Positions 1 to 48,892 of a DNA stretch of 64,000 bases are shown piece by piece. Made by a program: the position numbers and the translations under genes. The stretch's first letter is position 1; every line of letters starts with the position of its first letter. The notes beneath the pieces were generated by a model that saw only the letters and a program-made list of their open reading frames with translations, was not told where the DNA came from and did not search any database. This DNA is from Eledone cirrhosa (lineage: Eukaryota), in contig OZ024741.1 of the NCBI GenBank assembly GCA_964016885.1, positions 411,804,001 through 411,868,000 of the forward strand, in the 5' to 3' direction.

Positions 1-3000
1 GTCTGTTGTATGAAGGGGAGGGGAGACTGAGCTGGTATAGACATGTAATGTAGAGGGATGATGTCTGTTGTGTGAAGGGGAGGGGAGACTGTGCTGGTAT
101 AGACATGTAATGTAGAGGGATGATGTCTGTTGTGTGAAGGGGAGGGGAGACTGCTGGTATAGACATGTAATGTAGAGGGATGATGACTGTTGTGTGAAGG
201 GGAGGGGAGACTGTGCTGGTATAGACATGTAATGTAGAGGGATGATGACTGTTGTGTGAAGGGGAGGGGAGACTGTGCTGGTATAGACATGTAATGTAGA
301 GGGATGATGTCTGTTGTGTGAAGGGGAGGGGAGACTGCTGGTATAGACATGTAATGTAGAGGGATGATGTCTGTTGTGTGAAGGGGAGGGGAGACTGAGC
401 TGGTATAGACATGTAATGTAGAGGGATGATGTCTGTTGTGTGAAGGGGAGGGGAGACTGTGCTGGTATAGACATGTAATGTAGAGGGATGATGACTGTTG
501 TGTGAAGGGGAGGGGAGACTGTGCTGGTATAGACATGTAATGTAGAGGGATGATGTCTGTTGTGTGAAGGGGAGGGGAGACTGTGCTGGTATAGACATGT
601 AATGTAGAGGGATGATGACTGTTGTGTGAAGGGGAGGGGAGACTGTGCTGGTATAGACATGTAATGTAGAGGGATGATGTCTGTTGTATGAAGGGGAGTG
701 GAGACTGAGCTGGTATAGACATGTAATGTAGAGGGATGATGTCTGTTGTGTGAAGGGGAGGGGAGACTGTGCTGGTATAGACATGTAATGTAGAGGGATG
801 ATGACTGTTGTGTGAAGGGGAGGGGAGACTGTGCTGGTATAGACATGTAATGTAGAGGGATGATGTCTGTTGTGTGAAGGGGAGGGGAGACTGTGCTGGT
901 ATAGACATGTAATGTAGAGGGATGATGTCTGTTGTGTGAAGGGGAGGGGAGACTGAGCTGGTATAGACATGTAATGTAGAGGGATGATGACTGTTGTGTG
1001 AAGGGGAGGGGAGACTGTGCTGGTATAGACATGTAATGTAGAGGGATGATGTCTGTTGTGTGAAGGGGAGGGGAGACTGAGCTGGTATAGACATGTAATG
1101 TAGAGGGATGATGTCTGTTGTATGAAGGGGAGGGGAGACTGTGCTGGTATAGACATGTAATGTAGAGGGATGATGTCTGTTGTGTGAAGGGGAGGGGAGA
1201 CTGAGCTGGTATAGACATGTAATGTAGAGGGATGATGTCTGTTGTATGAAGGGGAGGGGAGACTGTGCTGGTATAGACATGTAATGTAGAGGGATGATGT
1301 CTGTTGTGTGAAGGGGAGGGGAGACTGAGCTGGTATAGACATGTAATGTAGAGGGATGATGTCTGTTGTGTGAAGGGGGGGGGAGACTGAGCTGGTATAG
1401 ACATGTAATGTAGAGGGATGATGTCTGTTGTGTGAAGGGGAGGGGAGACTGAGCTGGTATAGACATGTAATGTAGAGGGATGATGTCTGTTGTGTGAAGG
1501 GGAGGGGAGACTGTGCTGGTATAGACATGTAATGTAGAGGGATGATGTCTGTTGTGTGAAGGGGAGGGGAGACTGAGCTGGTATAGACATGTAATGTAGA
1601 GGGATGATGTCTGTTGTGTGAAGGGGAGGGGAGACTGAGCTGGTATAGACATGTAATGTAGAGGGATGATGTCTGTTGTGTGAAGGGGAGGGGAGACTGA
1701 GCTGGTATAGACATGTAATGTAGAGGGATGATGTCTGTTGTATGAAGGGGAGGGGAGACTGAGCTGGTATAGACATGTAATGTAGAGGGATGATGTCTGT
1801 TGTGTGAAGGGGAGGGGAGACTGAGCTGGTATAGACATGTAATGTAGAGGGATGATGTCTGTTGTATGAAGGGGAGGGGAGACTGTGCTGGTATAGACAT
1901 GTAATGTAGAGGGATGATGTCTGTTGTGTGAAGGGGAGGGGAGACTGAGCTGGTATAGACATGTAATGTAGAGGGATGATGTCTGTTGTGTGAAGGGGGG
2001 GGGGAGACTGAGCTGGTATAGACATGTAATGTAGAGGGATGATGTCTGTTGTGTGAAGGGGAGGGGAGACTGAGCTGGTATAGACATGTAATGTAGAGGG
2101 ATGATGTCTGTTGTGTGAAGGGGAGGGGAGACTGTGCTGGTATAGACATGTAATGTAGAGGGATGATGTCTGTTGTGTGAAGGGGAGGGGAGACTGAGCT
2201 GGTATAGACATGTAATGTAGAGGGATGATGTCTGTTGTGTGAAGGGGAGGGGAGACTGAGCTGGTATAGACATGTAATGTAGAGGGATGATGTCTGTTGT
2301 GTGAAGGGGAGGGGAGACTGTGCTGGTATAGACATGTAATGTAGAGGGATGATGACTGTTGTGTGAAGGGGAGGGGAGACTGTGCTGGTATAGACATGTA
2401 ATGTAGAGGGATGATGTCTGTTGTGTGAAGGGGAGGGGAGACTGAGCTGGTATAGACATGTAATGTAGAGGGATGATGTCTGTTGTGTGAAGGGGAGGGG
2501 AGACTGAGCTGGTATAGACATGTAATGTAGAGGGATGATGTCTGTTGTGTGAAGGGGAGGGGAGACTGAGCTGGTATAGACATGTAATGTAGAGGGATGA
2601 TGTCTGTTGTGTGAAGGGGAGGGGAGACTGTGCTGGTATAGACATGTAATGTAGAGGGATGATGACTGTTGTGTGAAGGGGAGGGGAGACTGTGCTGGTA
2701 TAGACATGTAATGTAGAGGGATGATGTCTGTTGTATGAAGGGGAGTGGAGACTGAGCTGGTATAGACATGTAATGTAGAGGGATGATGTCTGTTGTGTGA
2801 AGGGGAGGGGAGACTGTGCTGGTATAGACATGTAATGTAGAGGGATGATGACTGTTGTGTGAAGGGGAGGGGAGACTGTGCTGGTATAGACATGTAATGT
2901 AGAGGGATGATGTCTGTTGTATGAAGGGGAGGGGAGACTGTGCTGGTATAGACATGTAATGTAGAGGGATGATGTCTGTTGTGTGAAGGGGAGGGGAGAC

Positions 3001-6000
3001 TGAGCTGGTATAGACATGTAATGTAGAGGGATGATGTCTGTTGTGTGAAGGGGGGGGGAGACTGAGCTGGTATAGACATGTAATGTAGAGGGATGATGTC
3101 TGTTGTGTGAAGGGGAGGGGAGACTGAGCTGGTATAGACATGTAATGTAGAGGGATGATGTCTGTTGTGTGAAGGGGAGGGGGAGACTGTGCTGGTATAG
3201 ACATGTAATGTAGAGGGATGATGTCTGTTGTGTGAAGGGGAGGGGAGACTGAGCTGGTATAGACATGTAATGTAGAGGGATGATGTCTGTTGTGTGAAGG
3301 GGAGGGGAGACTGAGCTGGTATAGACATGTAATGTAGAGGGATGATGTCTGTTGTGTGAAGGGGAGGGGAGACTGAGCTGGTATAGACATGTAATGTAGA
3401 GGGATGATGTCCTGTTGTATGAAGGGGAGGGGAGACTGAGCTGGTATAGACATGTAATGTAGAGGGATGATGTCTGTTGTGTGAAGGGGAGGGGAGACTG
3501 AGCTGGTATAGACATGTAATGTAGAGGGATGATGTCTGTTGTATGAAGGGGAGGGGAGACTGTGCTGGTATAGACATGTAATGTAGAGGGATGATGTCTG
3601 TTGTGTGAAGGGGAGGGGAGACTGAGCTGGTATAGACATGTAATGTAGAGGGATGATGTCTGTTGTGTGAAGGGGGGGGGGAGACTGAGCTGGTATAGAC
3701 ATGTAATGTAGAGGGATGATGTCTGTTGTGTGAAGGGGAGGGGAGACTGAGCTGGTATAGACATGTAATGTAGAGGGATGATGTCTGTTGTGTGAAGGGG
3801 AGGGGAGACTGTGCTGGTATAGACATGTAATGTAGAGGGATGATGTCTGTTGTGTGAAGGGGAGGGGAGACTGAGCTGGTATAGACATGTAATGTAGAGG
3901 GATGATGTCTGTTGTGTGAAGGGGAGGGGGAGACTGAGCTGGTATAGACATGTAATGTAGAGGGATGATGTCTGTTGTGTGAAGGGGAGGGGAGACTGAG
4001 CTGGTATAGACATGTAATGTAGAGGGATGATGTCTGTTGTATGAAGGGGAGGGGAGACTGTGCTGGTATAGACATGTAATGTAGAGGGATGATGTCTGTT
4101 GTGTGAAGGGGAGGGGAGACTGAGCTGGTATAGACATGTAATGTAGAGGGATGATGTCTGTTGTATGAAGGGGAGGGGAGACTGTGCTGGTATAGACATG
4201 TAATGTAGAGGGATGATGTCTGTTGTGTGAAGGGGAGGGGAGACTGAGCTGGTATAGACATGTAATGTAGAGGGATGATGTCTGTTGTGTGAAGGGGGGG
4301 GGAGACTGAGCTGGTATAGACATGTAATGTAGAGGGATGATGTCTGTTGTGTGAAGGGGAGGGGAGACTGAGCTGGTATAGACATGTAATGTAGAGGGAT
4401 GATGTCTGTTGTGTGAAGGGGAGGGGAGACTGTGCTGGTATAGACATGTAATGTAGAGGGATGATGTCTGTTGTGTGAAGGGGAGGGGAGACTGAGCTGG
4501 TATAGACATGTAATGTAGAGGGATGATGTCTGTTGTGTGAAGGGGAGGGGAGACTGAGCTGGTATAGACATGTAATGTAGAGGGATGATGTCTGTTGTGT
4601 GAAGGGGAGGGGAGACTGAGCTGGTATAGACATGTAATGTAGAGGGATGATGTCTGTTGTATGAAGGGGAGGGGAGACTGTGCTGGTATAGACATGTAAT
4701 GTAGAGGGATGATGACTGTTGTGTGAAGGGGAGGGGAGACTGTGCTGGTATAGACATGTAATGTAGAGGGATGATGTCTGTTGTGTGAAGGGGAGGGGAG
4801 ACTGTGCTGGTATAGACATGTAATGTAGAGGGATGATGTCTGTTGTATGAAGGGGAGGGGAGACTGTGCTGGTATAGACATGTAATGTAGAGGGATGATG
4901 TCTGTTGTGTGAAGGGGAGGGGAGACTGTGCTGGTATAGACATGTAATGTAGAGGGATGATGTCTGTTGTGTGAAGGGGAGGGGAGACTGTGCTGGTATA
5001 GACATGTAATGTAGAGGGATGATGTCTGTTGTGTGAAGGGGAGGGGAGACTGAGCTGGTATAGACATGTAATGTAGAGGGATGATGTCTGTTGTGTGAAG
5101 GGGAGGGGAGACTGAGCTGGTATAGACATGTAATGTAGAGGGATGATGTCTGTTGTGTGAAGGGGTGGGGAGACTGTGCTGGTATAGACATGTAATGTAG
5201 AGGGATGATGTCTGTTGTGTGAAGGGGAGGGGAGACTGAGCTGGTATAGACATGTAATGTAGAGGGATGATGTCTGTTGTGTGAAGGGGAGGGGAGACTG
5301 AGCTGGTATAGACATGTAATGTAGAGGGATGATGTCTGTTGTGTGAAGGGGAGGGGAGACTGAGCTGGTATAGACATGTAATGTAGAGGGATGATGTCTG
5401 TTGTGTGAAGGGGACGGGAGACTGTGCTGGTATAGACATGTAATGTAGAGGGATGATGTCTGTTGTGTGAAGGGGAGACTGAGCTGGTATAGACATGTAA
5501 TGTAGAGGGATGATGTCTGTTGTGTGAAGGGGACGGGAGACTGTGCTGGTATAGACATGTAATGTAGAGGGATGATGTCTGTTGTATGAAGGGGAGGGGA
5601 GACTGAGCTGGTATAGACATGTAATGTAGAGGGATGATGTCTGTTGTATGAAGGGGAGGGGAGACTGTGCTGGTATAGACATGTAATGTAGAGGGATGAT
5701 GTCTGTTGTGTGAAGGGGACGGGAGACTGTGCTGGTATAGACATGTAATGTAGAGGGATGATGTCTGTTGTGTGAAGGGGAGGGGAGACTGAGCTGGTAT
5801 AGACATGTAATGTAGAGGGATGATGACTGTTGTGTGAAGGGGTGGGGAGACTGTGCTGGTATAGACATGTAATGTAGAGGGATGATGACTGTTGTGTGAA
5901 GGGGAGGGGAGACTGAGCTGGTATAGACATGTAATGTAGAGGGATGATGTCTGTTGTATGAAGGGGAGGGGAGACTGTGCTGGTATAGACATGTAATGTA

Positions 6001-9000
6001 GAGGGATGATGTCTGTTGTGTGAAGGGGACGGGAGACTGTGCTGGTATAGACATGTAATGTAGAGGGATGATGTCTGTTGTATGAAGGGGAGGGGAGACT
6101 GAGCTGGTATAGACATGTAATGTAGAGGGATGATGTCTGTTGTGTGAAGGGGACGGGAGACTGTGCTGGTATAGACATGTAATGTAGAGGGATGATGTCT
6201 GTTGTGTGAAGGGGACGGGAGACTGTGCTGGTATAGACATGTAATGTAGAGGGATGATGTCTGTTGTGTGAAGGGGAGGGGAGACTGAGCTGGTATAGAC
6301 ATGTAATGTAGAGGGATGATGACTGTTGTGTGAAGGGGAGGGGAGACTGAGCTGGTATAGACATGTAATGTAGAGGGATGATGTCTGTTGTGTGAAGGGG
6401 AGGGGAGACTGCTGGTATAGACATGTAATGTAGAGGGATGATGCCTGTTGTGTGAAGGGGAGGGGAGACTGCTGGTATAGACATGTAATGTAGAGGGATG
6501 ATGACTGTTGTGTGAAGGGGAGGGGAGACTGTGCTGGTATAGACATGTAATGTAGAGGGATGATGTCTGTTGTGTGAAGGGGTGGGGAGACTGTGCTGGT
6601 ATAGACATGTAATGTAGAGGGATGATGACTGTTGTGTGAAGGGGAGGGGAGACTGAGCTGGTATAGACATGTAATGTAGAGGGATGATGTCTGTTGTATG
6701 AAGGGGAGGGGAGACTGAGCTGGTATAGACATGTAATGTAGAGGGATGATGTCTGTTGTATGAAGGGGAGGGGAGACTGTGCTGGTATAGACATGTAATG
6801 TAGAGGGATGATGTCTGTTGTGTGAAGGGGACGGGAGACTGTGCTGGTATAGACATGTAATGTAGAGGGATGATGTCTGTTGTGTGAAGGGGAGGGGAGA
6901 CTGAGCTGGTATAGACATGTAATGTAGAGGGATGATGACTGTTGTGTGAAGGGGAGGGGAGACTGAGCTGGTATAGACATGTAATGTAGAGGGATGATGT
7001 CTGTTGTGTGAAGGGGAGGGGAGACTGCTGGTATAGACATGTAATGTAGAGGGATGATGCCTGTTGTGTGAAGGGGAGGGGAGACTGCTGGTATAGACAT
7101 GTAATGTAGAGGGATGATGACTGTTGTGTGAAGGGGAGGGGAGACTGTGCTGGTATAGACATGTAATGTAGAGGGATGATGTCTGTTGTGTGAAGGGGTG
7201 GGGAGACTGTGCTGGTATAGACATGTAATGTAGAGGGATGATGACTGTTGTGTGAAGGGGAGGGGAGACTGAGCTGGTATAGACATGTAATGTAGAGGGA
7301 TGATGACTGTTGTGTGAAGGGGAGGGGAGACTGCTGGTATAGACATGTAATGTAGAGGGATGATGTCTGTTGTGTGAAGGGGTGGGGAGACTGTGCTGGT
7401 ATAGACATGTAATGTAGAGGGATGATGACTGTTGTGTGAAGGGGAGGGGAGACTGAGCTGGTATAGACATGTAATGTAGAGGGATGATGACTGTTGTGTG
7501 AAGGGGAGGGGAGACTGCTGGTATAGACATGTAATGTAGAGGGATGATGTCTGTTGTGTGAAGGGGTGGGGAGACTGTGCTGGTATAGACATGTAATGTA
7601 GAGGGATGATGACTGTTGTGTGAAGGGGAGGGGAGACTGAGCTGGTATAGACATGTAATGTAGAGGGATGATGTCTGTTGTGTGAAGGGGAGGGGAGACT
7701 GCTGGTATAGACATGTAATGTAGAGGGATGATGCCTGTTGTGTGAAGGGGAGGGGAGACTGCTGGTATAGACATGTAATGTAGAGGGATGATGACTGTTG
7801 TGTGAAGGGGAGGGGAGACTGTGCTGGTATAGACATGTAATGTAGAGGGATGATGTCTGTTGTGTGAAGGGGTGGGGAGACTGTGCTGGTATAGACATGT
7901 AATGTAGAGGGATGATGACTGTTGTGTGAAGGGGAGGGGAGACTGAGCTGGTATAGACATGTAATGTAGAGGGATGATGTCTGTTGTGTGAAGGGGAGGG
8001 GAGACTGAGCTGGTATAGACATGTAATGTAGAGGGATGATGTCTGTTGTGTGAAGGGGAGGGGAGACTGAGCTGGTATAGACATGTAATGTAGAGGGATG
8101 ATGTCTGTTGTGTGAAGGGGACGGGAGACTGTGCTGGTATAGACATGTAATGTAGAGGGATGATGTCTGTTGTGTGAAGGGGAGACTGAGCTGGTATAGA
8201 CATGTAATGTAGAGGGATGATGTCTGTTGTGTGAAGGGGACGGGAGACTGTGCTGGTATAGACATGTAATGTAGAGGGATGATGTCTGTTGTATGAAGGG
8301 GAGGGGAGACTGAGCTGGTATAGACATGTAATGTAGAGGGATGATGACTGTTGTGTGAAGGGGAGGGGAGACTGAGCTGGTATAGACATGTAATGTAGAG
8401 GGATGATGTCTGTTGTATGAAGGGGAGGGGAGACTGAGCTGGTATAGACATGTAATGTAGAGGGATGATGTCTGTTGTATGAAGGGGAGGGGAGACTGTG
8501 CTGGTATAGACATGTAATGTAGAGGGATGATGTCTGTTGTGTGAAGGGGACGGGAGACTGTGCTGGTATAGACATGTAATGTAGAGGGATGATGTCTGTT
8601 GTGTGAAGGGGAGGGGAGACTGAGCTGGTATAGACATGTAATGTAGAGGGATGATGACTGTTGTGTGAAGGGGAGGGGAGACTGCTGGTATAGACATGTA
8701 ATGTAGAGGGATGATGACTGTTGTGTGAAGGGGAGGGGAGACTGTGCTGGTATAGACATGTAATGTAGAGGGATGATGACTGTTGTGTGAAGGGGAGGGG
8801 AGACTGTGCTGGTATAGACATGTAATGTAGAGGGATGATGTCTGTTGTGTGAAGGGGAGGGGAGACTGCTGGTATAGACATGTAATGTAGAGGGATGATG
8901 TCTGTTGTGTGAAGGGGAGGGGAGACTGAGCTGGTATAGACATGTAATGTAGAGGGATGATGTCTGTTGTGTGAAGGGGAGGGGAGACTGTGCTGGTATA

Positions 9001-12000
9001 GACATGTAATGTAGAGGGATGATGACTGTTGTGTGAAGGGGAGGGGAGACTGTGCTGGTATAGACATGTAATGTAGAGGGATGATGTCTGTTGTGTGAAG
9101 GGGAGGGGGAGACTGTGCTGGTATAGACATGTAATGTAGAGGGATGATGACTGTTGTGTGAAGGGGAGGGGAGACTGTGCTGGTATAGACATGTAATGTA
9201 GAGGGATGATGTCTGTTGTATGAAGGGGAGTGGAGACTGAGCTGGTATAGACATGTAATGTAGAGGGATGATGTCTGTTGTGTGAAGGGGAGGGGAGACT
9301 GTGCTGGTATAGACATGTAATGTAGAGGGATGATGACTGTTGTGTGAAGGGGAGGGGAGACTGTGCTGGTATAGACATGTAATGTAGAGGGATGATGTCT
9401 GTTGTATGAAGGGGAGGGGAGACTGTGCTGGTATAGACATGTAATGTAGAGGGATGATGTCTGTTGTGTGAAGGGGAGGGGAGACTGAGCTGGTATAGAC
9501 ATGTAATGTAGAGGGATGATGTCTGTTGTGTGAAGGGGGGGGGAGACTGAGCTGGTATAGACATGTAATGTAGAGGGATGATGTCTGTTGTGTGAAGGGG
9601 AGGGGAGACTGAGCTGGTATAGACATGTAATGTAGAGGGATGATGTCTGTTGTGTGAAGGGGAGGGGAGACTGTGCTGGTATAGACATGTAATGTAGAGG
9701 GATGATGTCTGTTGTGTGAAGGGGAGGGGAGACTGAGCTGGTATAGACATGTAATGTAGAGGGATGATGTCTGTTGTGTGAAGGGGAGGGGAGACTGAGC
9801 TGGTATAGACATGTAATGTAGAGGGATGATGTCTGTTGTGTGAAGGGGAGGGGAGACTGAGCTGGTATAGACATGTAATGTAGAGGGATGATGTCTGTTG
9901 TATGAAGGGGAGGGGAGACTGAGCTGGTATAGACATGTAATGTAGAGGGATGATGTCTGTTGTGTGAAGGGGAGGGGAGACTGAGCTGGTATAGACATGT
10001 AATGTAGAGGGATGATGTCTGTTGTATGAAGGGGAGGGGAGACTGTGCTGGTATAGACATGTAATGTAGAGGGATGATGTCTGTTGTGTGAAGGGGAGGG
10101 GAGACTGAGCTGGTATAGACATGTAATGTAGAGGGATGATGTCTGTTGTGTGAAGGGGGGGGGGAGACTGAGCTGGTATAGACATGTAATGTAGAGGGAT
10201 GATGTCTGTTGTGTGAAGGGGAGGGGAGACTGAGCTGGTATAGACATGTAATGTAGAGGGATGATGTCTGTTGTGTGAAGGGGAGGGGAGACTGTGCTGG
10301 TATAGACATGTAATGTAGAGGGATGATGTCTGTTGTGTGAAGGGGAGGGGAGACTGAGCTGGTATAGACATGTAATGTAGAGGGATGATGTCTGTTGTGT
10401 GAAGGGGAGGGGAGACTGAGCTGGTATAGACATGTAATGTAGAGGGATGATGTCTGTTGTGTGAAGGGGAGGGGAGACTGAGCTGGTATAGACATGTAAT
10501 GTAGAGGGATGATGTCTGTTGTATGAAGGGGAGGGGAGACTGTGCTGGTATAGACATGTAATGTAGAGGGATGATGTCTGTTGTGTGAAGGGGAGGGGAG
10601 ACTGAGCTGGTATAGACATGTAATGTAGAGGGATGATGTCTGTTGTATGAAGGGGAGGGGAGACTGTGCTGGTATAGACATGTAATGTAGAGGGATGATG
10701 TCTGTTGTGTGAAGGGGAGGGGAGACTGAGCTGGTATAGACATGTAATGTAGAGGGATGATGTCTGTTGTGTGAAGGGGGGGGGAGACTGAGCTGGTATA
10801 GACATGTAATGTAGAGGGATGATGTCTGTTGTGTGAAGGGGAGGGGAGACTGAGCTGGTATAGACATGTAATGTAGAGGGATGATGTCTGTTGTGTGAAG
10901 GGGAGGGGAGACTGTGCTGGTATAGACATGTAATGTAGAGGGATGATGTCTGTTGTGTGAAGGGGAGGGGAGACTGAGCTGGTATAGACATGTAATGTAG
11001 AGGGATGATGTCTGTTGTGTGAAGGGGAGGGGAGACTGAGCTGGTATAGACATGTAATGTAGAGGGATGATGTCTGTTGTGTGAAGGGGAGGGGAGACTG
11101 AGCTGGTATAGACATGTAATGTAGAGGGATGATGTCTGTTGTATGAAGGGGAGGGGAGACTGTGCTGGTATAGACATGTAATGTAGAGGGATGATGACTG
11201 TTGTGTGAAGGGGAGGGGAGACTGTGCTGGTATAGACATGTAATGTAGAGGGATGATGTCTGTTGTGTGAAGGGGAGGGGAGACTGTGCTGGTATAGACA
11301 TGTAATGTAGAGGGATGATGTCTGTTGTATGAAGGGGAGGGGAGACTGTGCTGGTATAGACATGTAATGTAGAGGGATGATGTCTGTTGTGTGAAGGGGA
11401 GGGGAGACTGTGCTGGTATAGACATGTAATGTAGAGGGATGATGTCTGTTGTGTGAAGGGGAGGGGAGACTGTGCTGGTATAGACATGTAATGTAGAGGG
11501 ATGATGTCTGTTGTGTGAAGGGGAGGGGAGACTGAGCTGGTATAGACATGTAATGTAGAGGGATGATGTCTGTTGTGTGAAGGGGAGGGGAGACTGAGCT
11601 GGTATAGACATGTAATGTAGAGGGATGATGTCTGTTGTGTGAAGGGGTGGGGAGACTGTGCTGGTATAGACATGTAATGTAGAGGGATGATGTCTGTTGT
11701 GTGAAGGGGAGGGGAGACTGAGCTGGTATAGACATGTAATGTAGAGGGATGATGTCTGTTGTGTGAAGGGGAGGGGAGACTGAGCTGGTATAGACATGTA
11801 ATGTAGAGGGATGATGTCTGTTGTGTGAAGGGGAGGGGAGACTGAGCTGGTATAGACATGTAATGTAGAGGGATGATGTCTGTTGTGTGAAGGGGACGGG
11901 AGACTGTGCTGGTATAGACATGTAATGTAGAGGGATGATGTCTGTTGTGTGAAGGGGAGACTGAGCTGGTATAGACATGTAATGTAGAGGGATGATGTCT

Positions 12001-15000
12001 GTTGTGTGAAGGGGACGGGAGACTGTGCTGGTATAGACATGTAATGTAGAGGGATGATGTCTGTTGTATGAAGGGGAGGGGAGACTGAGCTGGTATAGAC
12101 ATGTAATGTAGAGGGATGATGTCTGTTGTATGAAGGGGAGGGGAGACTGTGCTGGTATAGACATGTAATGTAGAGGGATGATGTCTGTTGTGTGAAGGGG
12201 ACGGGAGACTGTGCTGGTATAGACATGTAATGTAGAGGGATGATGTCTGTTGTGTGAAGGGGAGGGGAGACTGAGCTGGTATAGACATGTAATGTAGAGG
12301 GATGATGACTGTTGTGTGAAGGGGTGGGGAGACTGTGCTGGTATAGACATGTAATGTAGAGGGATGATGACTGTTGTGTGAAGGGGAGGGGAGACTGAGC
12401 TGGTATAGACATGTAATGTAGAGGGATGATGTCTGTTGTATGAAGGGGAGGGGAGACTGTGCTGGTATAGACATGTAATGTAGAGGGATGATGTCTGTTG
12501 TGTGAAGGGGACGGGAGACTGTGCTGGTATAGACATGTAATGTAGAGGGATGATGTCTGTTGTATGAAGGGGAGGGGAGACTGAGCTGGTATAGACATGT
12601 AATGTAGAGGGATGATGTCTGTTGTGTGAAGGGGACGGGAGACTGTGCTGGTATAGACATGTAATGTAGAGGGATGATGTCTGTTGTGTGAAGGGGACGG
12701 GAGACTGTGCTGGTATAGACATGTAATGTAGAGGGATGATGTCTGTTGTGTGAAGGGGAGGGGAGACTGAGCTGGTATAGACATGTAATGTAGAGGGATG
12801 ATGACTGTTGTGTGAAGGGGAGGGGAGACTGAGCTGGTATAGACATGTAATGTAGAGGGATGATGTCTGTTGTGTGAAGGGGAGGGGAGACTGCTGGTAT
12901 AGACATGTAATGTAGAGGGATGATGCCTGTTGTGTGAAGGGGAGGGGAGACTGCTGGTATAGACATGTAATGTAGAGGGATGATGACTGTTGTGTGAAGG
13001 GGAGGGGAGACTGTGCTGGTATAGACATGTAATGTAGAGGGATGATGTCTGTTGTGTGAAGGGGTGGGGAGACTGTGCTGGTATAGACATGTAATGTAGA
13101 GGGATGATGACTGTTGTGTGAAGGGGAGGGGAGACTGAGCTGGTATAGACATGTAATGTAGAGGGATGATGTCTGTTGTATGAAGGGGAGGGGAGACTGA
13201 GCTGGTATAGACATGTAATGTAGAGGGATGATGTCTGTTGTATGAAGGGGAGGGGAGACTGTGCTGGTATAGACATGTAATGTAGAGGGATGATGTCTGT
13301 TGTGTGAAGGGGACGGGAGACTGTGCTGGTATAGACATGTAATGTAGAGGGATGATGTCTGTTGTGTGAAGGGGAGGGGAGACTGAGCTGGTATAGACAT
13401 GTAATGTAGAGGGATGATGACTGTTGTGTGAAGGGGAGGGGAGACTGAGCTGGTATAGACATGTAATGTAGAGGGATGATGTCTGTTGTGTGAAGGGGAG
13501 GGGAGACTGCTGGTATAGACATGTAATGTAGAGGGATGATGCCTGTTGTGTGAAGGGGAGGGGAGACTGCTGGTATAGACATGTAATGTAGAGGGATGAT
13601 GACTGTTGTGTGAAGGGGAGGGGAGACTGTGCTGGTATAGACATGTAATGTAGAGGGATGATGTCTGTTGTGTGAAGGGGAGGGGAGACTGAGCTGGTAT
13701 AGACATGTAATGTAGAGGGATGATGTCTGTTGTATGAAGGGGAGGGGAGACTGTGCTGGTATAGACATGTAATGTAGAGGGATGATGTCTGTTGTGTGAA
13801 GGGGAGGGGAGACTGAGCTGGTATAGACATGTAATGTAGAGGGATGATGTCTGTTGTGTGAAGGGGGGGGGAGACTGAGCTGGTATAGACATGTAATGTA
13901 GAGGGATGATGTCTGTTGTGTGAAGGGGAGGGGAGACTGAGCTGGTATAGACATGTAATGTAGAGGGATGATGTCTGTTGTGTGAAGGGGAGGGGAGACT
14001 GTGCTGGTATAGACATGTAATGTAGAGGGATGATGTCTGTTGTGTGAAGGGGAGGGGAGACTGAGCTGGTATAGACATGTAATGTAGAGGGATGATGTCT
14101 GTTGTGTGAAGGGGAGGGGAGACTGAGCTGGTATAGACATGTAATGTAGAGGGATGATGTCTGTTGTGTGAAGGGGAGGGGAGACTGAGCTGGTATAGAC
14201 ATGTAATGTAGAGGGATGATGTCTGTTGTATGAAGGGGAGGGGAGACTGTGCTGGTATAGACATGTAATGTAGAGGGATGATGACTGTTGTGTGAAGGGG
14301 AGGGGAGACTGTGCTGGTATAGACATGTAATGTAGAGGGATGATGTCTGTTGTGTGAAGGGGAGGGGAGACTGTGCTGGTATAGACATGTAATGTAGAGG
14401 GATGATGTCTGTTGTATGAAGGGGAGGGGAGACTGTGCTGGTATAGACATGTAATGTAGAGGGATGATGTCTGTTGTGTGAAGGGGAGGGGAGACTGTGC
14501 TGGTATAGACATGTAATGTAGAGGGATGATGTCTGTTGTGTGAAGGGGAGGGGAGACTGTGCTGGTATAGACATGTAATGTAGAGGGATGATGTCTGTTG
14601 TGTGAAGGGGAGGGGAGACTGAGCTGGTATAGACATGTAATGTAGAGGGATGATGTCTGTTGTGTGAAGGGGAGGGGAGACTGAGCTGGTATAGACATGT
14701 AATGTAGAGGGATGATGTCTGTTGTGTGAAGGGGTGGGGAGACTGTGCTGGTATAGACATGTAATGTAGAGGGATGATGTCTGTTGTGTGAAGGGGAGGG
14801 GAGACTGAGCTGGTATAGACATGTAATGTAGAGGGATGATGTCTGTTGTGTGAAGGGGAGGGGAGACTGAGCTGGTATAGACATGTAATGTAGAGGGATG
14901 ATGTCTGTTGTGTGAAGGGGAGGGGAGACTGAGCTGGTATAGACATGTAATGTAGAGGGATGATGTCTGTTGTGTGAAGGGGACGGGAGACTGTGCTGGT

Positions 15001-18000
15001 ATAGACATGTAATGTAGAGGGATGATGTCTGTTGTGTGAAGGGGAGACTGAGCTGGTATAGACATGTAATGTAGAGGGATGATGTCTGTTGTGTGAAGGG
15101 GACGGGAGACTGTGCTGGTATAGACATGTAATGTAGAGGGATGATGTCTGTTGTATGAAGGGGAGGGGAGACTGAGCTGGTATAGACATGTAATGTAGAG
15201 GGATGATGTCTGTTGTATGAAGGGGAGGGGAGACTGTGCTGGTATAGACATGTAATGTAGAGGGATGATGTCTGTTGTGTGAAGGGGACGGGAGACTGTG
15301 CTGGTATAGACATGTAATGTAGAGGGATGATGTCTGTTGTGTGAAGGGGAGGGGAGACTGAGCTGGTATAGACATGTAATGTAGAGGGATGATGACTGTT
15401 GTGTGAAGGGGTGGGGAGACTGTGCTGGTATAGACATGTAATGTAGAGGGATGATGACTGTTGTGTGAAGGGGAGGGGAGACTGAGCTGGTATAGACATG
15501 TAATGTAGAGGGATGATGTCTGTTGTATGAAGGGGAGGGGAGACTGTGCTGGTATAGACATGTAATGTAGAGGGATGATGTCTGTTGTGTGAAGGGGACG
15601 GGAGACTGTGCTGGTATAGACATGTAATGTAGAGGGATGATGTCTGTTGTATGAAGGGGAGGGGAGACTGAGCTGGTATAGACATGTAATGTAGAGGGAT
15701 GATGTCTGTTGTGTGAAGGGGACGGGAGACTGTGCTGGTATAGACATGTAATGTAGAGGGATGATGTCTGTTGTGTGAAGGGGACGGGAGACTGTGCTGG
15801 TATAGACATGTAATGTAGAGGGATGATGTCTGTTGTGTGAAGGGGAGGGGAGACTGAGCTGGTATAGACATGTAATGTAGAGGGATGATGACTGTTGTGT
15901 GAAGGGGAGGGGAGACTGAGCTGGTATAGACATGTAATGTAGAGGGATGATGTCTGTTGTGTGAAGGGGAGGGGAGACTGCTGGTATAGACATGTAATGT
16001 AGAGGGATGATGCCTGTTGTGTGAAGGGGAGGGGAGACTGCTGGTATAGACATGTAATGTAGAGGGATGATGACTGTTGTGTGAAGGGGAGGGGAGACTG
16101 TGCTGGTATAGACATGTAATGTAGAGGGATGATGTCTGTTGTGTGAAGGGGTGGGGAGACTGTGCTGGTATAGACATGTAATGTAGAGGGATGATGACTG
16201 TTGTGTGAAGGGGAGGGGAGACTGAGCTGGTATAGACATGTAATGTAGAGGGATGATGTCTGTTGTATGAAGGGGAGGGGAGACTGAGCTGGTATAGACA
16301 TGTAATGTAGAGGGATGATGTCTGTTGTATGAAGGGGAGGGGAGACTGTGCTGGTATAGACATGTAATGTAGAGGGATGATGTCTGTTGTGTGAAGGGGA
16401 CGGGAGACTGTGCTGGTATAGACATGTAATGTAGAGGGATGATGTCTGTTGTGTGAAGGGGAGGGGAGACTGAGCTGGTATAGACATGTAATGTAGAGGG
16501 ATGATGACTGTTGTGTGAAGGGGAGGGGAGACTGAGCTGGTATAGACATGTAATGTAGAGGGATGATGTCTGTTGTGTGAAGGGGAGGGGAGACTGCTGG
16601 TATAGACATGTAATGTAGAGGGATGATGCCTGTTGTGTGAAGGGGAGGGGAGACTGCTGGTATAGACATGTAATGTAGAGGGATGATGACTGTTGTGTGA
16701 AGGGGAGGGGAGACTGTGCTGGTATAGACATGTAATGTAGAGGGATGATGTCTGTTGTGTGAAGGGGTGGGGAGACTGTGCTGGTATAGACATGTAATGT
16801 AGAGGGATGATGACTGTTGTGTGAAGGGGAGGGGAGACTGAGCTGGTATAGACATGTAATGTAGAGGGATGATGACTGTTGTGTGAAGGGGAGGGGAGAC
16901 TGCTGGTATAGACATGTAATGTAGAGGGATGATGTCTGTTGTGTGAAGGGGTGGGGAGACTGTGCTGGTATAGACATGTAATGTAGAGGGATGATGACTG
17001 TTGTGTGAAGGGGAGGGGAGACTGAGCTGGTATAGACATGTAATGTAGAGGGATGATGACTGTTGTGTGAAGGGGAGGGGAGACTGCTGGTATAGACATG
17101 TAATGTAGAGGGATGATGTCTGTTGTGTGAAGGGGTGGGGAGACTGTGCTGGTATAGACATGTAATGTAGAGGGATGATGACTGTTGTGTGAAGGGGAGG
17201 GGAGACTGAGCTGGTATAGACATGTAATGTAGAGGGATGATGTCTGTTGTGTGAAGGGGAGGGGAGACTGCTGGTATAGACATGTAATGTAGAGGGATGA
17301 TGCCTGTTGTGTGAAGGGGAGGGGAGACTGCTGGTATAGACATGTAATGTAGAGGGATGATGACTGTTGTGTGAAGGGGAGGGGAGACTGTGCTGGTATA
17401 GACATGTAATGTAGAGGGATGATGTCTGTTGTGTGAAGGGGTGGGGAGACTGTGCTGGTATAGACATGTAATGTAGAGGGATGATGACTGTTGTGTGAAG
17501 GGGAGGGGAGACTGAGCTGGTATAGACATGTAATGTAGAGGGATGATGTCTGTTGTGTGAAGGGGAGGGGAGACTGAGCTGGTATAGACATGTAATGTAG
17601 AGGGATGATGTCTGTTGTGTGAAGGGGAGGGGAGACTGAGCTGGTATAGACATGTAATGTAGAGGGATGATGTCTGTTGTGTGAAGGGGACGGGAGACTG
17701 TGCTGGTATAGACATGTAATGTAGAGGGATGATGTCTGTTGTGTGAAGGGGAGACTGAGCTGGTATAGACATGTAATGTAGAGGGATGATGTCTGTTGTG
17801 TGAAGGGGACGGGAGACTGTGCTGGTATAGACATGTAATGTAGAGGGATGATGTCTGTTGTATGAAGGGGAGGGGAGACTGAGCTGGTATAGACATGTAA
17901 TGTAGAGGGATGATGTCTGTTGTATGAAGGGGAGGGGAGACTGTGCTGGTATAGACATGTAATGTAGAGGGATGATGTCTGTTGTGTGAAGGGGACGGGA

Positions 18001-21000
18001 GACTGTGCTGGTATAGACATGTAATGTAGAGGGATGATGTCTGTTGTGTGAAGGGGAGGGGAGACTGAGCTGGTATAGACATGTAATGTAGAGGGATGAT
18101 GACTGTTGTGTGAAGGGGTGGGGAGACTGTGCTGGTATAGACATGTAATGTAGAGGGATGATGACTGTTGTGTGAAGGGGAGGGGAGACTGAGCTGGTAT
18201 AGACATGTAATGTAGAGGGATGATGTCTGTTGTATGAAGGGGAGGGGAGACTGTGCTGGTATAGACATGTAATGTAGAGGGATGATGTCTGTTGTGTGAA
18301 GGGGACGGGAGACTGTGCTGGTATAGACATGTAATGTAGAGGGATGATGTCTGTTGTATGAAGGGGAGGGGAGACTGAGCTGGTATAGACATGTAATGTA
18401 GAGGGATGATGTCTGTTGTGTGAAGGGGACGGGAGACTGTGCTGGTATAGACATGTAATGTAGAGGGATGATGTCTGTTGTGTGAAGGGGACGGGAGACT
18501 GTGCTGGTATAGACATGTAATGTAGAGGGATGATGTCTGTTGTGTGAAGGGGAGGGGAGACTGAGCTGGTATAGACATGTAATGTAGAGGGATGATGACT
18601 GTTGTGTGAAGGGGAGGGGAGACTGAGCTGGTATAGACATGTAATGTAGAGGGATGATGTCTGTTGTGTGAAGGGGAGGGGAGACTGCTGGTATAGACAT
18701 GTAATGTAGAGGGATGATGCCTGTTGTGTGAAGGGGAGGGGAGACTGCTGGTATAGACATGTAATGTAGAGGGATGATGACTGTTGTGTGAAGGGGAGGG
18801 GAGACTGTGCTGGTATAGACATGTAATGTAGAGGGATGATGTCTGTTGTGTGAAGGGGTGGGGAGACTGTGCTGGTATAGACATGTAATGTAGAGGGATG
18901 ATGACTGTTGTGTGAAGGGGAGGGGAGACTGAGCTGGTATAGACATGTAATGTAGAGGGATGATGTCTGTTGTATGAAGGGGAGGGGAGACTGAGCTGGT
19001 ATAGACATGTAATGTAGAGGGATGATGTCTGTTGTATGAAGGGGAGGGGAGACTGTGCTGGTATAGACATGTAATGTAGAGGGATGATGTCTGTTGTGTG
19101 AAGGGGACGGGAGACTGTGCTGGTATAGACATGTAATGTAGAGGGATGATGTCTGTTGTGTGAAGGGGAGGGGAGACTGAGCTGGTATAGACATGTAATG
19201 TAGAGGGATGATGACTGTTGTGTGAAGGGGAGGGGAGACTGAGCTGGTATAGACATGTAATGTAGAGGGATGATGTCTGTTGTGTGAAGGGGAGGGGAGA
19301 CTGCTGGTATAGACATGTAATGTAGAGGGATGATGCCTGTTGTGTGAAGGGGAGGGGAGACTGCTGGTATAGACATGTAATGTAGAGGGATGATGACTGT
19401 TGTGTGAAGGGGAGGGGAGACTGTGCTGGTATAGACATGTAATGTAGAGGGATGATGTCTGTTGTGTGAAGGGGTGGGGAGACTGTGCTGGTATAGACAT
19501 GTAATGTAGAGGGATGATGACTGTTGTGTGAAGGGGAGGGGAGACTGAGCTGGTATAGACATGTAATGTAGAGGGATGATGACTGTTGTGTGAAGGGGAG
19601 GGGAGACTGCTGGTATAGACATGTAATGTAGAGGGATGATGTCTGTTGTGTGAAGGGGTGGGGAGACTGTGCTGGTATAGACATGTAATGTAGAGGGATG
19701 ATGACTGTTGTGTGAAGGGGAGGGGAGACTGAGCTGGTATAGACATGTAATGTAGAGGGATGATGACTGTTGTGTGAAGGGGAGGGGAGACTGCTGGTAT
19801 AGACATGTAATGTAGAGGGATGATGTCTGTTGTGTGAAGGGGTGGGGAGACTGTGCTGGTATAGACATGTAATGTAGAGGGATGATGACTGTTGTGTGAA
19901 GGGGAGGGGAGACTGAGCTGGTATAGACATGTAATGTAGAGGGATGATGTCTGTTGTGTGAAGGGGAGGGGAGACTGCTGGTATAGACATGTAATGTAGA
20001 GGGATGATGCCTGTTGTGTGAAGGGGAGGGGAGACTGCTGGTATAGACATGTAATGTAGAGGGATGATGACTGTTGTGTGAAGGGGAGGGGAGACTGTGC
20101 TGGTATAGACATGTAATGTAGAGGGATGATGTCTGTTGTGTGAAGGGGTGGGGAGACTGTGCTGGTATAGACATGTAATGTAGAGGGATGATGACTGTTG
20201 TGTGAAGGGGAGGGGAGACTGAGCTGGTATAGACATGTAATGTAGAGGGATGATGTCTGTTGTGTGAAGGGGAGGGGAGACTGCTGGTATAGACATGTAA
20301 TGTAGAGGGATGATGACTGTTGTGTGAAGGGGAGGGGAGACTGTGCTGGTATAGACATGTAATGTAGAGGGATGATGACTGTTGTGTGAAGGGGAGGGGA
20401 GACTGTGCTGGTATAGACATGTAATGTAGAGGGATGATGTCTGTTGTGTGAAGGGGAGGGGAGACTGCTGGTATAGACATGTAATGTAGAGGGATGATGT
20501 CTGTTGTGTGAAGGGGTGGGGAGACTGTGCTGGTATAGACATGTAATGTAGAGGGATGATGTCTGTTGTGTGAAGGGGAGGGGAGACTGTGCTGGTATAG
20601 ACATGTAATGTAGAGGGATGATGTCTGTTGTGTGAAGGGGAGGGGAGACTGTGCTGGTATAGACATGTAATGTAGAGGGATGATGTCTGTTGTGTGAAGG
20701 GGAGGGGAGACTGTGCTGGTATAGACATGTAATGTAGAGGGATGATGTCTGTTGTGTGAAGGGGAGGGGAGACTGTGCTGGTATAGACATGTAATGTAGA
20801 GGGATGATGACTGTTGTGTGAAGGGGAGGGGAGACTGTGCTGGTATAGACATGTAATGTAGAGGGATGATGTCTGTTGTGTGAAGGGGAGGGGAGACTGC
20901 TGGTATAGACATGTAATGTAGAGGGATGATGTCTGTTGTGTGAAGGGGAGGGGAGACTGAGCTGGTATAGACATGTAATGTAGAGGGATGATGTCTGTTG

Positions 21001-21616
21001 TGTGAAGGGGAGGGGAGACTGTGCTGGTATAGACATGTAATGTAGAGGGATGATGTCTGTTGTGTGAAGGGGAGGGGAGACTGAGCTGGTATAGACATGT
21101 AATGTAGAGGGATGATGTCTGTTGTGTGAAGGGGAGGGGAGACTGTGCTGGTATAGACATGTAATGTAGAGGGATGATGTCTGTTGTGTGAAGGAGAGGG
21201 GAGACTGTGCTGGTATAGACATGTAATGTAGAGGGATGATGTCTGTTGTGTGAAGGGGAGGGGAGACTGTGCTGGTATAGACATGTAATGTAGAGGGATG
21301 ATGTCTGTTGTGTGAAGGAGAGGGGAGACTGTGCTGGTATAGACATGTAATGTAGAGGGATGATGTCTGTAGTGTGAAGGGGAGGGGAGACTGTGCTGGT
21401 ATAGACATGTAATGTAGAGGGATGATGTCTGTTGTGTGAAGGGGAGGGGAGACTGTGCTGGTATAGACATGTAATGTAGAGGGATGATGACTGTTGTGTG
21501 AAGGGGAGGGGAGACTGTGCTGGTATAGACATGTAATGTAGAGGGATGATGTCTGTTGTGTGAAGGGGAGGGGAGACTGCTGGTATAGACATGTAATGTA
21601 GAGGGATGATGTCTGT
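1..21616 (+). repeat. 62-bp tandem satellite (about 349 monomers; continues past the window start), derived from RTE LINE coding sequence
   Basis: Monomer GTCTGTTGTGTGAAGGGGAGGGGAGACTGTGCTGGTATAGACATGTAATGTAGAGGGATGAT repeats uninterrupted with a few recurrent variants (57- and 60-bp deletion monomers, SNVs). Confidence 0.98.
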
Positions 21617-21750
21617 GAGGCAAAGACGTACAAGGTGTTCCTAGTGGAAGGAAGCTGTGGAAGAGGAAGACCAAGAAAGACATGGGCAGAGGTGGTAAAA
21701 GTTGATGTCAGGAGGCTGAACCTCACAAAGATGACTACACAGGAAAGAGA
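21617..21750 (+). mobile_element. Single-copy RTE LINE C-terminal remnant linking the two satellites
   Basis: Translates as VEGSCGRGRPRKTWAEVVKVDVRRLNL, the GRP-KTW motif also present in the RTE copies at 25122-25889, 35980-36423 and 49150-49240. Confidence 0.88.
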
Positions 21751-24218
21751 TGGTGTACCAGTGAGGGCCTGTCTAACCCATGGAGAGGTGGTGTACCAGT
21801 GAGGGCCTGTCTAACCCATGGAGAGGTGGTGTACCAGTGAGGACCTGTCTAACCCATGGAGAGGTGGTGTACCAGTGAGGACCTGTCTAACGCATGCAGA
21901 GATGGTGATGGTGTTCCAGTGAGGGCCTGTCAAACCCATGGAGAGGTGGTGATGGTGTACCTGTGAGGGCCTGTCTAACCTATGGAGAGGTGGTGTACCA
22001 GTGAGGATCTGTCTAACCCATGGAGAGGTGGTGTACCAGTGAGGACCTGTCTAACCCATGGAGAGGTGGTGTACCAGTGAGGACCTGTCTAACCCATGTA
22101 GAGGTGGTGTATCAGTGAAGGCCTGTGTAACCCATGTAGAGGTGGTGTACCAGTGAAGGCCTGTCTAACCCATGCAGAGATGGTGATGGTGTACCAGTGA
22201 GAGCCTGTCTAACCCATGGAGAGGTGGTGTACCTGTGAGGGCCTGTCTAACCCATGGAGAGGTGGTGTATCAGTGAAGGCCTGTGTAACCCATGTAGAGG
22301 TGGTGTACCAGTGAAGGCCTGTCTAACCCATGCAGAGATGGTGATGGTGTACCAGTGAGAGCCTGTCTAACCCATGGAGAGGTGGTGTACCTGTGAGGGC
22401 CTGTCTAACCCATGTAGAGGTGGTGTATCAGTGAAGGCCTGTGTAACCCATGTAGAGGTGGTGTACCAGTGAAGGCCTGTCTAACCCATGCAGAGATGGT
22501 GATGGTGTACCAGTGAGAGCCTGTCTAACCCATGGAGAGGTGGTGTACCTGTGAGGGCCTGTCTAACCCATGGAGAGGTGGTGTATCAGTGAAGGCCTGT
22601 GTAACCCATGTAGGGGTGGTGTACCAGTGAGGACCTGTCTAACCCATGTAGAGGTGGTGTACCAGTGAGGGCCTATCTAACCCATGTAGAGGTGGTGATG
22701 GTGTACAAGTGAGGGCCTGTCTAACCCATGTAGAGGTGGTGTACCAGTGAGGGCCTGTCTAACCCATGGAGAGGTGGTGTACCATTGAGGACCTGTCTAA
22801 CCCATTTAGAGGTGGTGTACCAGTGAGGGCTTGTCTAACCCATGGAGAGGTGGTGTACCAGTGAGGAAATTTCTAACCCATGTAGAGGTGGTGTACCAGT
22901 GAGGGCCTGTCTAACCCATGTAGAGGTGGTGTACCAGTGAGGACCTGTCTAACCTATATAGAGGTGCTGTATTAGTGAGGACCTGTCTAACCCATGGAGA
23001 TATGGTGTACCAGTGAGGACCTGTCTAACCCATGTAGAGGTGGTGTACCAGTGAGGACCTGTCTAACCCATGGAGAGGTGGTGATGGTGTACCAGTGAGG
23101 GCCTGTCTAACCCATGTAGGGGTGGTGTACCAGTGAGGGCCTGTCTAACCCATGTAGGGGTGGTGTACCAGTGAGGACCTGTCTAACCCATGTAGAGGTG
23201 GTGTATCAATGAGGATCTGTCTAACCCATGGAGAGGTGGTGATGGTGTACCAGTGAGGGCCTGTGTAACCCATGGAGAGGTGGTGATGGTGTACCAGTGA
23301 GGGCCTGTGTAACCCATGTAGGGGTGGTGTACCAGTGAGGGCCTGTCTAACCCATGGAGAGGTGGTGATGGTGTACCAGTGAGGGCCTGTGTAACCCATG
23401 TAGGGGTGGTGTACCAGTGAGGACCTGTCTAACCCATGGAGAGGTGGTGATGGTGTACCAGTGAGGGCCTGTCTAACCCATGTAGGGGTGGTGTACCAGT
23501 GAGGGCCTGTCTAACCCATGTAGGGGTGGTGTACCAGTGAGGACCTGTCTAACCCATGTAGAGGTGGTGTATCAATGAGGATCTGTCTAACCCATGGAGA
23601 GGTGGTGATGGTGTACCAGTGAGGGCCTGTGTAACCCATGGAGAGGTGGTGATGGTGTACCAGTGAGGGCCTGTGTAACCCATGTAGGGGTGGTGTACCA
23701 GTGAGGGCCTGTCTAACCCATGGAGAGGTGGTGATGGTGTACCAGTGAGGGCCTGTGTAACCCATGTAGGGGTGGTGTACCAGTGAGGGCCTGTCTAACC
23801 CATGGAGAGGTGGTGATGGTGTACCAGTGAGGGCCTGTGTAACCCATGTAGGGGTGGTGTACCAGTGAGGACCTGTCTAACCCATGGAGAGGTGGTGATG
23901 GTGTACCAGTGAGGGCCTGTGTAACCCATGTAGGGGTGGTGTACCAGTGAGGGCCTGTCTAACCCATGTAGAGGTGGTGTACCAATGAGGATCTGTCTAA
24001 CCCATGGAGAGGTGGTGATGGTGTACCAGTGAGGACCTGTCTAACCCATGTAGAGGTGGTGTACCAGTGAGGAGCTGTCTAACCCATGGAGAGGTGGTGA
24101 TGGTGTACCAGTGAGGGCCTGTCTAACCCATGGAGAGATGGTGTACCAGTGAGGACCTGTCTAACCGATGGAGAGGTGGTGTACCAGTGAGAGCCTGTCT
24201 AACCCATAGAGAGGTGGT
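21745..24218 (+). repeat. 38/44-bp minisatellite derived from the RTE 3' end
   Basis: Unit TGGAGAGGTGGTGTACCAGTGAGGGCCTGTCTAACCCA, with or without a GTGATG insert. The core AGGACCTGTCTAACCCATG matches AGGACCTGTCCAACCCATG of the RTE copy at ~49288. Internal 158-bp and 366-bp higher-order duplications are visible. Confidence 0.95.
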
Positions 24219-24703
24219 GAAAGAAAGCACACCTCATAAAGGAGATGACACAGGAATGAGACAATGGAGAGAGATTTTGAACTGGGGAGGACTTGGGGTA
24301 ATCCATGTAAAACTATAATGGTGATGATGAATGAATCACGATTCACTCATCATCACCATTATAGTTTCATGTGAATATGTTTTTCCCTATTTTGGTAGAA
24401 TTTTACAGATTTGGCTGTGAATTCTTGCAAGTTGAGTGATAACATAGCAGATAGCTTGTTGGGCTAATTGTGAGTTGGGAGAGGGACACATCTCCCAGAA
24501 ACCATGTTGATTCTCTTGAGAATATTTTACTTCTCTATTTTGTGTATATACTCAGTTATCTCCCTTCGTATTTCTCTCAGTCAGGTAAATCTAATGAGAA
24601 TTATATTTAAATTAAACCATTCCATCGTTATTTTATGTAAACACCTTTTCAATCCTATTTTAACACTTTTCATGAAAAGCTGTTGGTTTTAAAGTATTTA
24701 TAT

Positions 24704-35506: not shown

Positions 35507-35638
35507 ATTACATCTTTTCTGAAACCTGAGGAACTTCAGCTGCTCCTGTCCTGTACAATGTTTAGACCCCGGACATTTCTCTTGAAACCAAACCAAGTTA
35601 TGTTTGTTACTGGGCTTGGTCGTATTGATTATGTTGAA
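35507..35638 (+). CDS. NOA1: NOA1 internal exon
   Basis: TTGCAG|ATT ... GAA|GTAAGA; 132 bp, phase 0/0; ITSFLKPEELQLLLSCTMFRPRTFLLKPNQVMFVTGLGRIDYVE (PRTF-LKP and GLGRID are typical of NOA1/YqeH). Confidence 0.92.
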
Positions 35639-48890: not shown

Positions 48891-48892
48891 AA

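What the first reader, a model, noticed from the sequence alone, without database searches (positions are those of the whole stretch)
1..24218. Two adjacent satellites born from consecutive segments of a single RTE LINE 3' end
Seen: the 62-mer TGTTGTGTGAAGGGGAGGGGAGACTGTGCTGGTATAGACATGTAATG aligns to the RTE segment TGCTGTGTGAAGGAGAGGCAGTTGCGTTGGTATGGACATGTGATG (CCVKERQLRWYGHVM, minus strand ~36150-36195). Directly after the array, the single-copy sequence continues collinearly as RTE (GRGRPRKTWAEVV). The next RTE segment (GGACCTGTCTAACCCATG) is then itself amplified as a 38/44-mer. Monomers near the array edge (~21191, ~21316) keep the RTE-like AAGGAGAGG state. Inference: ~250 bp of one decayed LINE was inflated to over 24 kb by two separate tandem amplifications, with the birth site still readable.
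Basis: partly seen in the sequence, partly recalled or inferred. Interest (0 to 1): 0.72.

Follow-up and report, generated by a model that had tools for sequence, protein, structure and literature searches.

The report
Two satellites grown inside dead LINE
Two tandem repeats (22.7 kb and 2.5 kb) sit back to back inside one decayed jumping-gene (LINE) end in a gene intron and match consecutive pieces of it, so both likely grew there from small duplications, a known process that is common near chromosome ends in this genome.

Summary
A 62-bp array (367 units, starting 1,047 bp left of the window), a 129-bp spacer and a 38/44-bp array (62 units) collapse to one collinear 3' end of an old RTE-like LINE family. 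Both monomers beat all 2,000 shuffles, and both arrays are single-locus. Corrections: the parent is the old short-tailed family, not the young one at 36 kb. A second, overlooked ~100-bp LINE segment follows the 38-mer, and the 38-mer likely arose at that older duplication junction. The same junction occurs at three other C2 sites, one of which grew a 66-mer array. Both arrays lie in one 31-kb intron of a NOA1-like gene. The case is ordinary here: arrays cover 33-49% of sampled distal DNA versus 6% of interior DNA. About half of the sampled units match dispersed repeats, the same LINE segment is arrayed at nine other places with other breakpoints, and closely adjacent arrays recur 60-70 kb upstream. 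A segment hotspot was not shown (1 of 40 versus 0 of 120). TE-derived arrays are published, and this scan noted LINE-born satellites before on other DNA of this genome.

The parts
1..21616 (+). 62-bp satellite; continues 1,047 bp left of the window (367 units, 22,664 bp); unit maps to LINE consensus about 222-286; 25 variants, 2.5% mean pairwise divergence; exact internal block duplications up to 4,305 bp
21192..21325 (+). two monomers with the LINE-like AAGGAGAGG state (2 of 367)
21617..21745 (+). unamplified LINE ORF end (GRGRPRKTWAEVV), with a 12-bp deletion just before the 38-mer
21746..24209 (+). 38/44-bp minisatellite, 62 units (44 of 38 bp, 18 of 44 bp), 8.8% mean pairwise divergence; unit maps to consensus about 413-452
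24210..24345 (+). second, older duplicate of the LINE 3' segment (profile from 348) plus decayed tail; its first 10 bases match the first 38-mer's first 10 bases at 9 of 10
29226..29446 (+). NOA1-like exon (DTPG motif) closing the about 31.3-kb host intron, which opens at window -2030; weak match alone (E 0.97) but in order between two better-matching exons
35507..35638 (+). next NOA1-like exon (E 1e-4 to human NOA1 508-548)
48893..49318 (+). dispersed, unamplified copy of the old parent family (reference)
35690..36460 (-). 5'-truncated copy of the young, long-UTR relative; related to but not the parent family

Best explanation
Both arrays match consecutive segments of one decayed RTE-like LINE 3' end in an intron 4.5 Mb from the end of C2, and both likely grew there by misalignment at short imperfect direct repeats followed by unequal exchange, with no sign of function. 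Step 1 (shown): the old LINE end carries a ~100-bp tandem duplication of its last segment. Step 2 (inferred): that junction placed a 9-of-10 direct repeat 38 bp apart; misalignment there made the first 38-mer dimer, which grew to 62 units and gained a 6-bp variant. Step 3 (inferred, weaker): an 8-of-9 repeat 60 bp apart seeded the other unit, which became 62 bp through a 2-bp gain in a purine run. Step 4 (shown): the 62-mer array contains exact multi-kb block copies, so its latest growth was by large steps. It has been homogenised more recently than the 38-mer (2.5% versus 8.8%). The driver is inferred to be regional: distal DNA in this genome amplifies many kinds of local sequence.
For: Collinear flanks, spacer and both units. 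Single-locus units and junctions: 364 of 364, 32 of 32 and 22 of 22 exact matches lie here; the one hit to an ancestral 62-mer junction pattern is an unduplicated copy. 9-of-10 repeat between the first 38-mer and the second segment; the family consensus holds only 3 such pairs in 25,086 position-lag pairs, none at lag 38. The same duplication junction occurs at C2:214.4, 217.7 and 265.5 Mb, and at 217.7 Mb a 66-mer array follows it. Native 8-of-9 repeats at lags 38 and 90 in the consensus lie near two sister arrays of 40 and 90 bp. Exact blocks of 4,305, 3,272 and 2,796 bp. Array cover 49% and 33% distal versus 6% interior. 33 of 69 sampled array rows match dispersed repeats, against 0 of 69 shuffled.
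Against: The 62-mer seed repeat is seen only when this copy's left edge is paired with the family consensus; the present right flank differs at 4 of those 9 bases, and consensus against consensus gives 5 of 10. My general microhomology test was uninformative. The A-type start of the 38-mer is in 6 of 62 units, including unit 61, so there is no clean polarity. The second segment groups with the other C2 tandem units rather than with the first segment (89/90 support, not starred, 108 columns, bootstrap unsettled), which would also fit import. Short-read contigs show both monomers but do not bridge the junctions. No orthologous pre-expansion locus was available.
Confidence: 0.72

Rival explanations
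1. Same birth in place, but the second LINE segment and its junction were brought in later from another copy on C2 (ectopic conversion or a second insertion), so the 38-mer straddles two elements.
For: Same junction at 4 loci, all on C2 (14% of the genome); the two off-C2 pattern hits are not duplications. The second segment groups with those units; the two local segments are only 75% alike. Flank matches among the four loci are short and patchy, none a continuous block around the junction.
Against: AU test does not reject local sisterhood (p 0.24). The first segment shares 3 of 7 scorable diagnostic bases with the tandem group, which fits one insertion from a small sub-lineage with a tandem tail. 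n is 4, the chromosome bias is post hoc, and exact patterns miss decayed junctions.
Confidence: 0.18
2. One reading: both units were cut from one unduplicated 250-bp end, and the sequence after the 38-mer is unrelated.
For: Collinearity from left flank to first 38-mer.
Against: The sequence after the array is a second LINE segment (E 6e-15), and 56 of 62 units lack the A-type start of the first unit, most starting with the G-type 10-mer that runs into the second segment.
Confidence: 0.04
3. The arrays are kept for a role (G-quadruplex, chromatin or splicing effect on the NOA1 intron).
For: Strong G skew (0.73); purine run richer in G than the parent; sense-strand intronic position.
Against: No canonical or relaxed (loops up to 12) four-tract G4 motif in either array; stops in all three sense frames; single-locus; equally long arrays of unrelated, G-poor sequence are common nearby.
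Confidence: 0.03
4. Satellites born elsewhere and inserted here, or an assembly artefact.
For: Junctions not bridged by short-read contigs; perfect multi-kb blocks could include assembly duplication.
Against: Exact register with LINE flanks on both sides; no other locus; the 62-mer has high word depth in three runs of one sample, which may be the source sample and so is not independent.
Confidence: 0.03

Closest known systems
SINE-derived satellites (sSat1-3) of squamates, PMC10702118 (parts 1-4 of 5 of the text read)
   Same: Unit is part of a retroposon; terminal units run on into the parent element; longer arrays are more homogeneous; subtelomeric bias; many independent origins with locus-specific limits; single loci with over 1,000 units.
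   Different: Parent here is a LINE ORF end, not a SINE; two separate arrays lie in one element with the middle left single; these units did not spread to other loci.
TE-derived minisatellites in human, PMC3389668 (passages read); Jurka and Gentles 2006 (seen only as cited there)
   Same: Arrays arise inside TE copies, short direct repeats at the seeds, some TE regions overrepresented (AluS, LTR12).
   Different: The 62-mer array is 22.7 kb and has multi-kb block duplications; a preferred region was tested here and not shown.
LINE-ORF2-derived satellites: chicken HinfI (CR1), Phodopus PROsat, seal Pvc20, cetacean common satellite, as reviewed in PMC9659126 (passages read)
   Same: Satellite unit derives from LINE ORF2 or 3' end.
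   Different: Here both flanks of the parent copy survive and the array is single-locus.
Ogre-derived satellites of Lathyrus sativus, PMC7004042 (abstract and outline read)
   Same: Short tandem arrays inside retrotransposons expand in favourable chromosome regions.
   Different: LTR element with native arrays and pericentromeric expansion; here a dead LINE, new junctions, distal expansion.

Membership tests
TE-derived satellite/minisatellite born in situ | Unit homologous to part of a dispersed TE beyond chance | tested here: met
   0 of 2,000 shuffles reach either score
TE-derived satellite/minisatellite born in situ | Flanks continue the parent element in register | tested here: met
   left flank only about 24 bp
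TE-derived satellite/minisatellite born in situ | Unamplified state at the orthologous site in a relative | not testable with these tools
   no relative genome held; holders of the stretch are one sample
TE-derived satellite/minisatellite born in situ | Short direct repeats at the seed | tested here: inconclusive
   9 of 10 for the 38-mer; 8 of 9 for the 62-mer only via consensus; general test failed
Multi-locus satellite DNA family | Same unit at several loci | tested here: not met
RTE-clade LINE (parent; criteria recalled) | Single ORF with APE endonuclease and RT | tested here: met
   young relative: 1,075-aa frame, Pfam Exo_endo_phos and RVT_1; old family 68% identical to its ORF end; no full-length old copy examined
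RTE-clade LINE (parent; criteria recalled) | 3' end in a short tandem tail | tested here: met
   (GAT)n tail in consensus and copies
RTE-clade LINE (parent; criteria recalled) | No RNase H or C-terminal zinc knuckle | tested here: inconclusive
   none found by Pfam, but a PHD finger follows the RT; RTE-2_OV is described with a zinc finger (PMC9115989, passages)
RTE-clade LINE (parent; criteria recalled) | RT phylogeny within the RTE clade | not tested
   PDB holds only L1, R2 and group II relatives; the RTE label is recalled from motifs
TE-internal duplication hotspot (AluS/LTR12 type) | One segment arrayed more often than its neighbours | tested here: inconclusive
   1 of 40 versus 0 of 40, 0 of 40, 0 of 40; neighbouring segments are arrayed too

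The most novel reading that the evidence does not exclude
A ready-made duplication junction in a LINE tail spreads between dead copies on one chromosome at the DNA level and acts as a reusable seed: it created new direct repeats that nucleated two different satellites (the 38-mer here, a 66-mer at C2:217.7 Mb). Satellite birth would then be a staged, heritable property of a junction, traceable across loci.
Probability: 0.25. Interest if true: 0.55.

Novelty: new member of a known kind. Interest (0 to 1): 0.3.

Why it matters
It is a clean, readable example of satellite birth: parent, both flanks, an unamplified middle, two arrays of different homogeneity and sister arrays with other breakpoints all survive. 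With an orthologous site it would time the steps from first duplication to 22-kb array. The wider point, that a third to a half of sampled distal DNA here consists of locally born arrays that inflate introns, is more useful than the single locus. The principle itself is published.

Tried and rejected
Segment hotspot: single-monomer queries gave arrays in 1 of 40 (62-mer segment) and 0 of 40 for each of three neighbours; underpowered and not significant. The nine sister places came from a dimer query that favours arrays. Copied junction for the 62-mer: no second locus. General microhomology test: control overlap averaged 49 bases under lenient scoring, uninformative. 5'-truncation hotspot at consensus 190: 3 of 74 dispersed copies start at 188-195, no peak. 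G-quadruplex and coding potential: rejected. Segmental duplication of the four junction loci: no continuous shared flank. Two off-C2 junction hits were not duplications. Runs: no RNA holder listed; three RAD runs of other samples gave 0-2 reads on the monomers at 90% and none at 98% for the one retested, so no conclusion. No Atlas result for the LINE protein. Literature searches listed no paper on LINE-derived satellites in octopods; the O. vulgaris repeat paper PMC13282606 has 0 occurrences of 'satellite' in its main text. The library is incomplete and no supplements were read, so this does not show absence from print.
Full report
Setting. The window is G000:C2:411804001-411868000, about 4.5 Mb from the end of a 416-Mb contig in a 3.0-Gb genome. 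That the animal is octopus-like is my recall from its repeats and the wording of an earlier scan note; no call names it.

Observation. TRF finds the 62-mer at 1-21616 and the 38-mer at 21746-24219. The 62-mer starts at window -1047 and has 367 units. The 129-bp spacer is a dispersed repeat: 40 of 1,491 candidates were scored, at 77-91% identity. I built a profile from 29 of those loci plus window 48881-49330. Its reading frame ends ...IRGIRCSVQERRLCWYGHVM...GRGRPRKTWAEVV...LTHASMEK. Left flank, one 62-mer, spacer and one 38-mer align to positions 193-466 in order (E 5e-59). Because the spacer chose the copies, I tested each monomer against consensus parts it had not chosen: 74 versus a shuffle maximum of 50, and 44 versus 29, in 2,000 shuffles each. 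The left flank continues the element for about 24 bp only.

Parent. The genome has a young family (108,870 candidates, best 150 at 96-100% protein identity) with one 1,075-aa frame holding endonuclease, RT and a PHD finger. The old family is 68% identical to its ORF end and lacks its long 3' UTR. The 62-mer is 81% identical to the old consensus and 77% to the young element. The RTE label is recalled from motifs and layout; no tree against named clades was run.

Single-locus birth. A 31-base 62-mer pattern has 364 exact matches in the genome and 364 in this array. Two 38-mer patterns have 32 of 32 and 22 of 22 here. A pattern for the likely ancestral 62-mer junction hit one unduplicated copy.

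The overlooked segment. After the 38-mer comes a second LINE 3' segment (profile 348-510, E 6e-15), 75% identical to the first over 84 columns. Its first ten bases match the first 38-mer's first ten at nine, so the duplication created a direct repeat 38 bp apart that the plain consensus lacks. The same junction occurs at C2:214.4, 217.7 and 265.5 Mb; two further pattern hits on C4 and C5 are not duplications. At 217.7 Mb a 66-mer array of 49 units grew beside it. In a 79-row tree the second segment groups with those tandem units (89/90, unstarred, bootstrap unsettled), the first does not, yet holding the two together is not rejected (p 0.24). One insertion with a tandem tail and later import both remain open.

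The 62-mer seed. The unit maps best to consensus 222-286. This copy's left edge and the consensus downstream share 8 of 9 bases 60 bp apart; a 2-bp gain in the purine run gives 62. The present right flank differs at 4 of these 9 bases, so this step is inference.

Growth. Among 366 monomers there are 25 variants (318 of 62 bp, 36 of 60, 7 of 63, 5 of 57), and mean pairwise divergence of the 62-bp ones is 2.5%. Exact blocks of 4,305 bp (lag 9,569), 3,272 bp (lag 6,482) and 2,796 bp (lag 2,707) show large recent duplications, or in part assembly. The 38-mer is 8.8% diverged with 36 variants in 62 units.

Host gene. Exons at window -2199 to -2031, 29226-29446 and 35507-35638 match human NOA1 383-416, 467-501 and 508-548 in order (E 2e-4, 0.97, 1e-4), with GT-AG ends. 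The two arrays fill about 25.1 of the 31.3 kb of one intron.

How ordinary. Arrays with units of 20 bp or more and 4 or more copies cover 49% of 200 kb from distal C2, 33% of 200 kb from distal parts of small chromosomes and 6% of 160 kb of interior DNA. These were hand-picked round coordinates; 50 kb adjoin the window and most small chromosomes were ones where sister arrays lay. Of 69 array rows with units of 30 bp or more, 33 match dispersed sequence in two or more other loci, against 0 shuffled. Eleven of the 33 are the LINE's native 48-51-bp UTR repeat (22 of 58 without them), and some arrays are counted in two chunks. The 62-mer's segment is arrayed at nine other places with units of 40-139 bp and different breakpoints; 7 of 9 chromosome-placed loci, this one included, lie within 4.6 Mb of an end. 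Another LINE copy 31 kb upstream holds a 19/42-bp array with both flanks intact, and three unrelated arrays 58-70 kb upstream are 155 and 62 bp apart. Gaps of 160 bp or less between unrelated arrays number 3 against 0.63 expected (P 0.02; at least one, P 0.48), so arrays cluster mildly.

Hotspot test. Equal-length single-copy queries found arrays in 1 of 40 scored candidates for the 62-mer segment and 0 of 40 for each of three neighbours. Tail segments are arrayed elsewhere too. A hotspot is neither shown nor excluded; PMC9659126 (passages) likewise finds no conclusive evidence for preferred TE portions, while PMC3389668 (passages) reports such regions in AluS and LTR12.

Reads. Contigs of three runs from one sample, possibly the source, hold both monomers but bridge neither junction.

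Comparison and verdict. Closest is the squamate SINE-derived satellite system (PMC10702118, parts 1-4 of 5 read), then human TE-derived minisatellites and LINE-ORF2 satellites. Earlier notes of this scan report LINE-born arrays elsewhere in this genome (none near this window); one suggested junction copying, which I tested: not found for the 62-mer or 38-mer junctions, possible for the older duplication junction. This is a real, well-preserved new member of a known kind; interest 0.3.

Noticed in passing
G000:C2 distal 409-415.5 Mb and distal small chromosomes (L096-L135): 33-49% of sampled distal DNA is tandem arrays of 20-105-bp units, several filling whole 10-kb samples, versus 6% interior.
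   Followed up: partly
L081, L085, L089, L092 (C19, C17, C26, C1156/C27): 4 of 11 mapped units from the same LINE segment re-enter the consensus at 189-192 but leave at 252, 258, 285 and 330; not explained by a truncation hotspot.
   Followed up: partly
L086-L088, L093-L095 (C291, C955): 90-bp satellite from the same LINE segment fills most of six stretches of 7-10 kb on two unplaced contigs, interrupted by insertions.
   Followed up: partly
L136:1641-5600 (C2:217.69 Mb): 108-bp tail triplication followed by a 66-mer array of 49 units; same older junction as this locus.
   Followed up: partly
window -24495 to -2243, 46711-47441, 48545-48904: 49-bp array of about 22 kb just upstream, with sister blocks 70 kb away split by a young LINE insertion; unit matches a dispersed repeat in 12 loci.
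   Followed up: no
window -70074 to -57836 (L037-L036): Three unrelated arrays (37, 41, 30 bp) separated by 155 and 62 bp, with no repeat match found.
   Followed up: partly
L111-L112 (C2:411.0 Mb) and L154 (C21:17.0 Mb): Same 61-bp unit arrayed at two loci and matching a dispersed repeat in 8 loci; looks like another LINE ORF end (recalled, not tested).
   Followed up: no
L120, L126, L128, L130, L155: 72-bp (and 85-bp) unit arrayed at several loci on C19, C20, C26, C27, matching a dispersed repeat.
   Followed up: no
L162:1320-4547: Very abundant young LINE with a PHD finger directly after the RT domain in a single 1,075-aa frame.
   Followed up: partly
window 29806-29913, 61583-62263: Native 48-50-bp tandem repeat in the young LINE 3' UTR varies from 2 to 38 copies among sampled insertions.
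   Followed up: no
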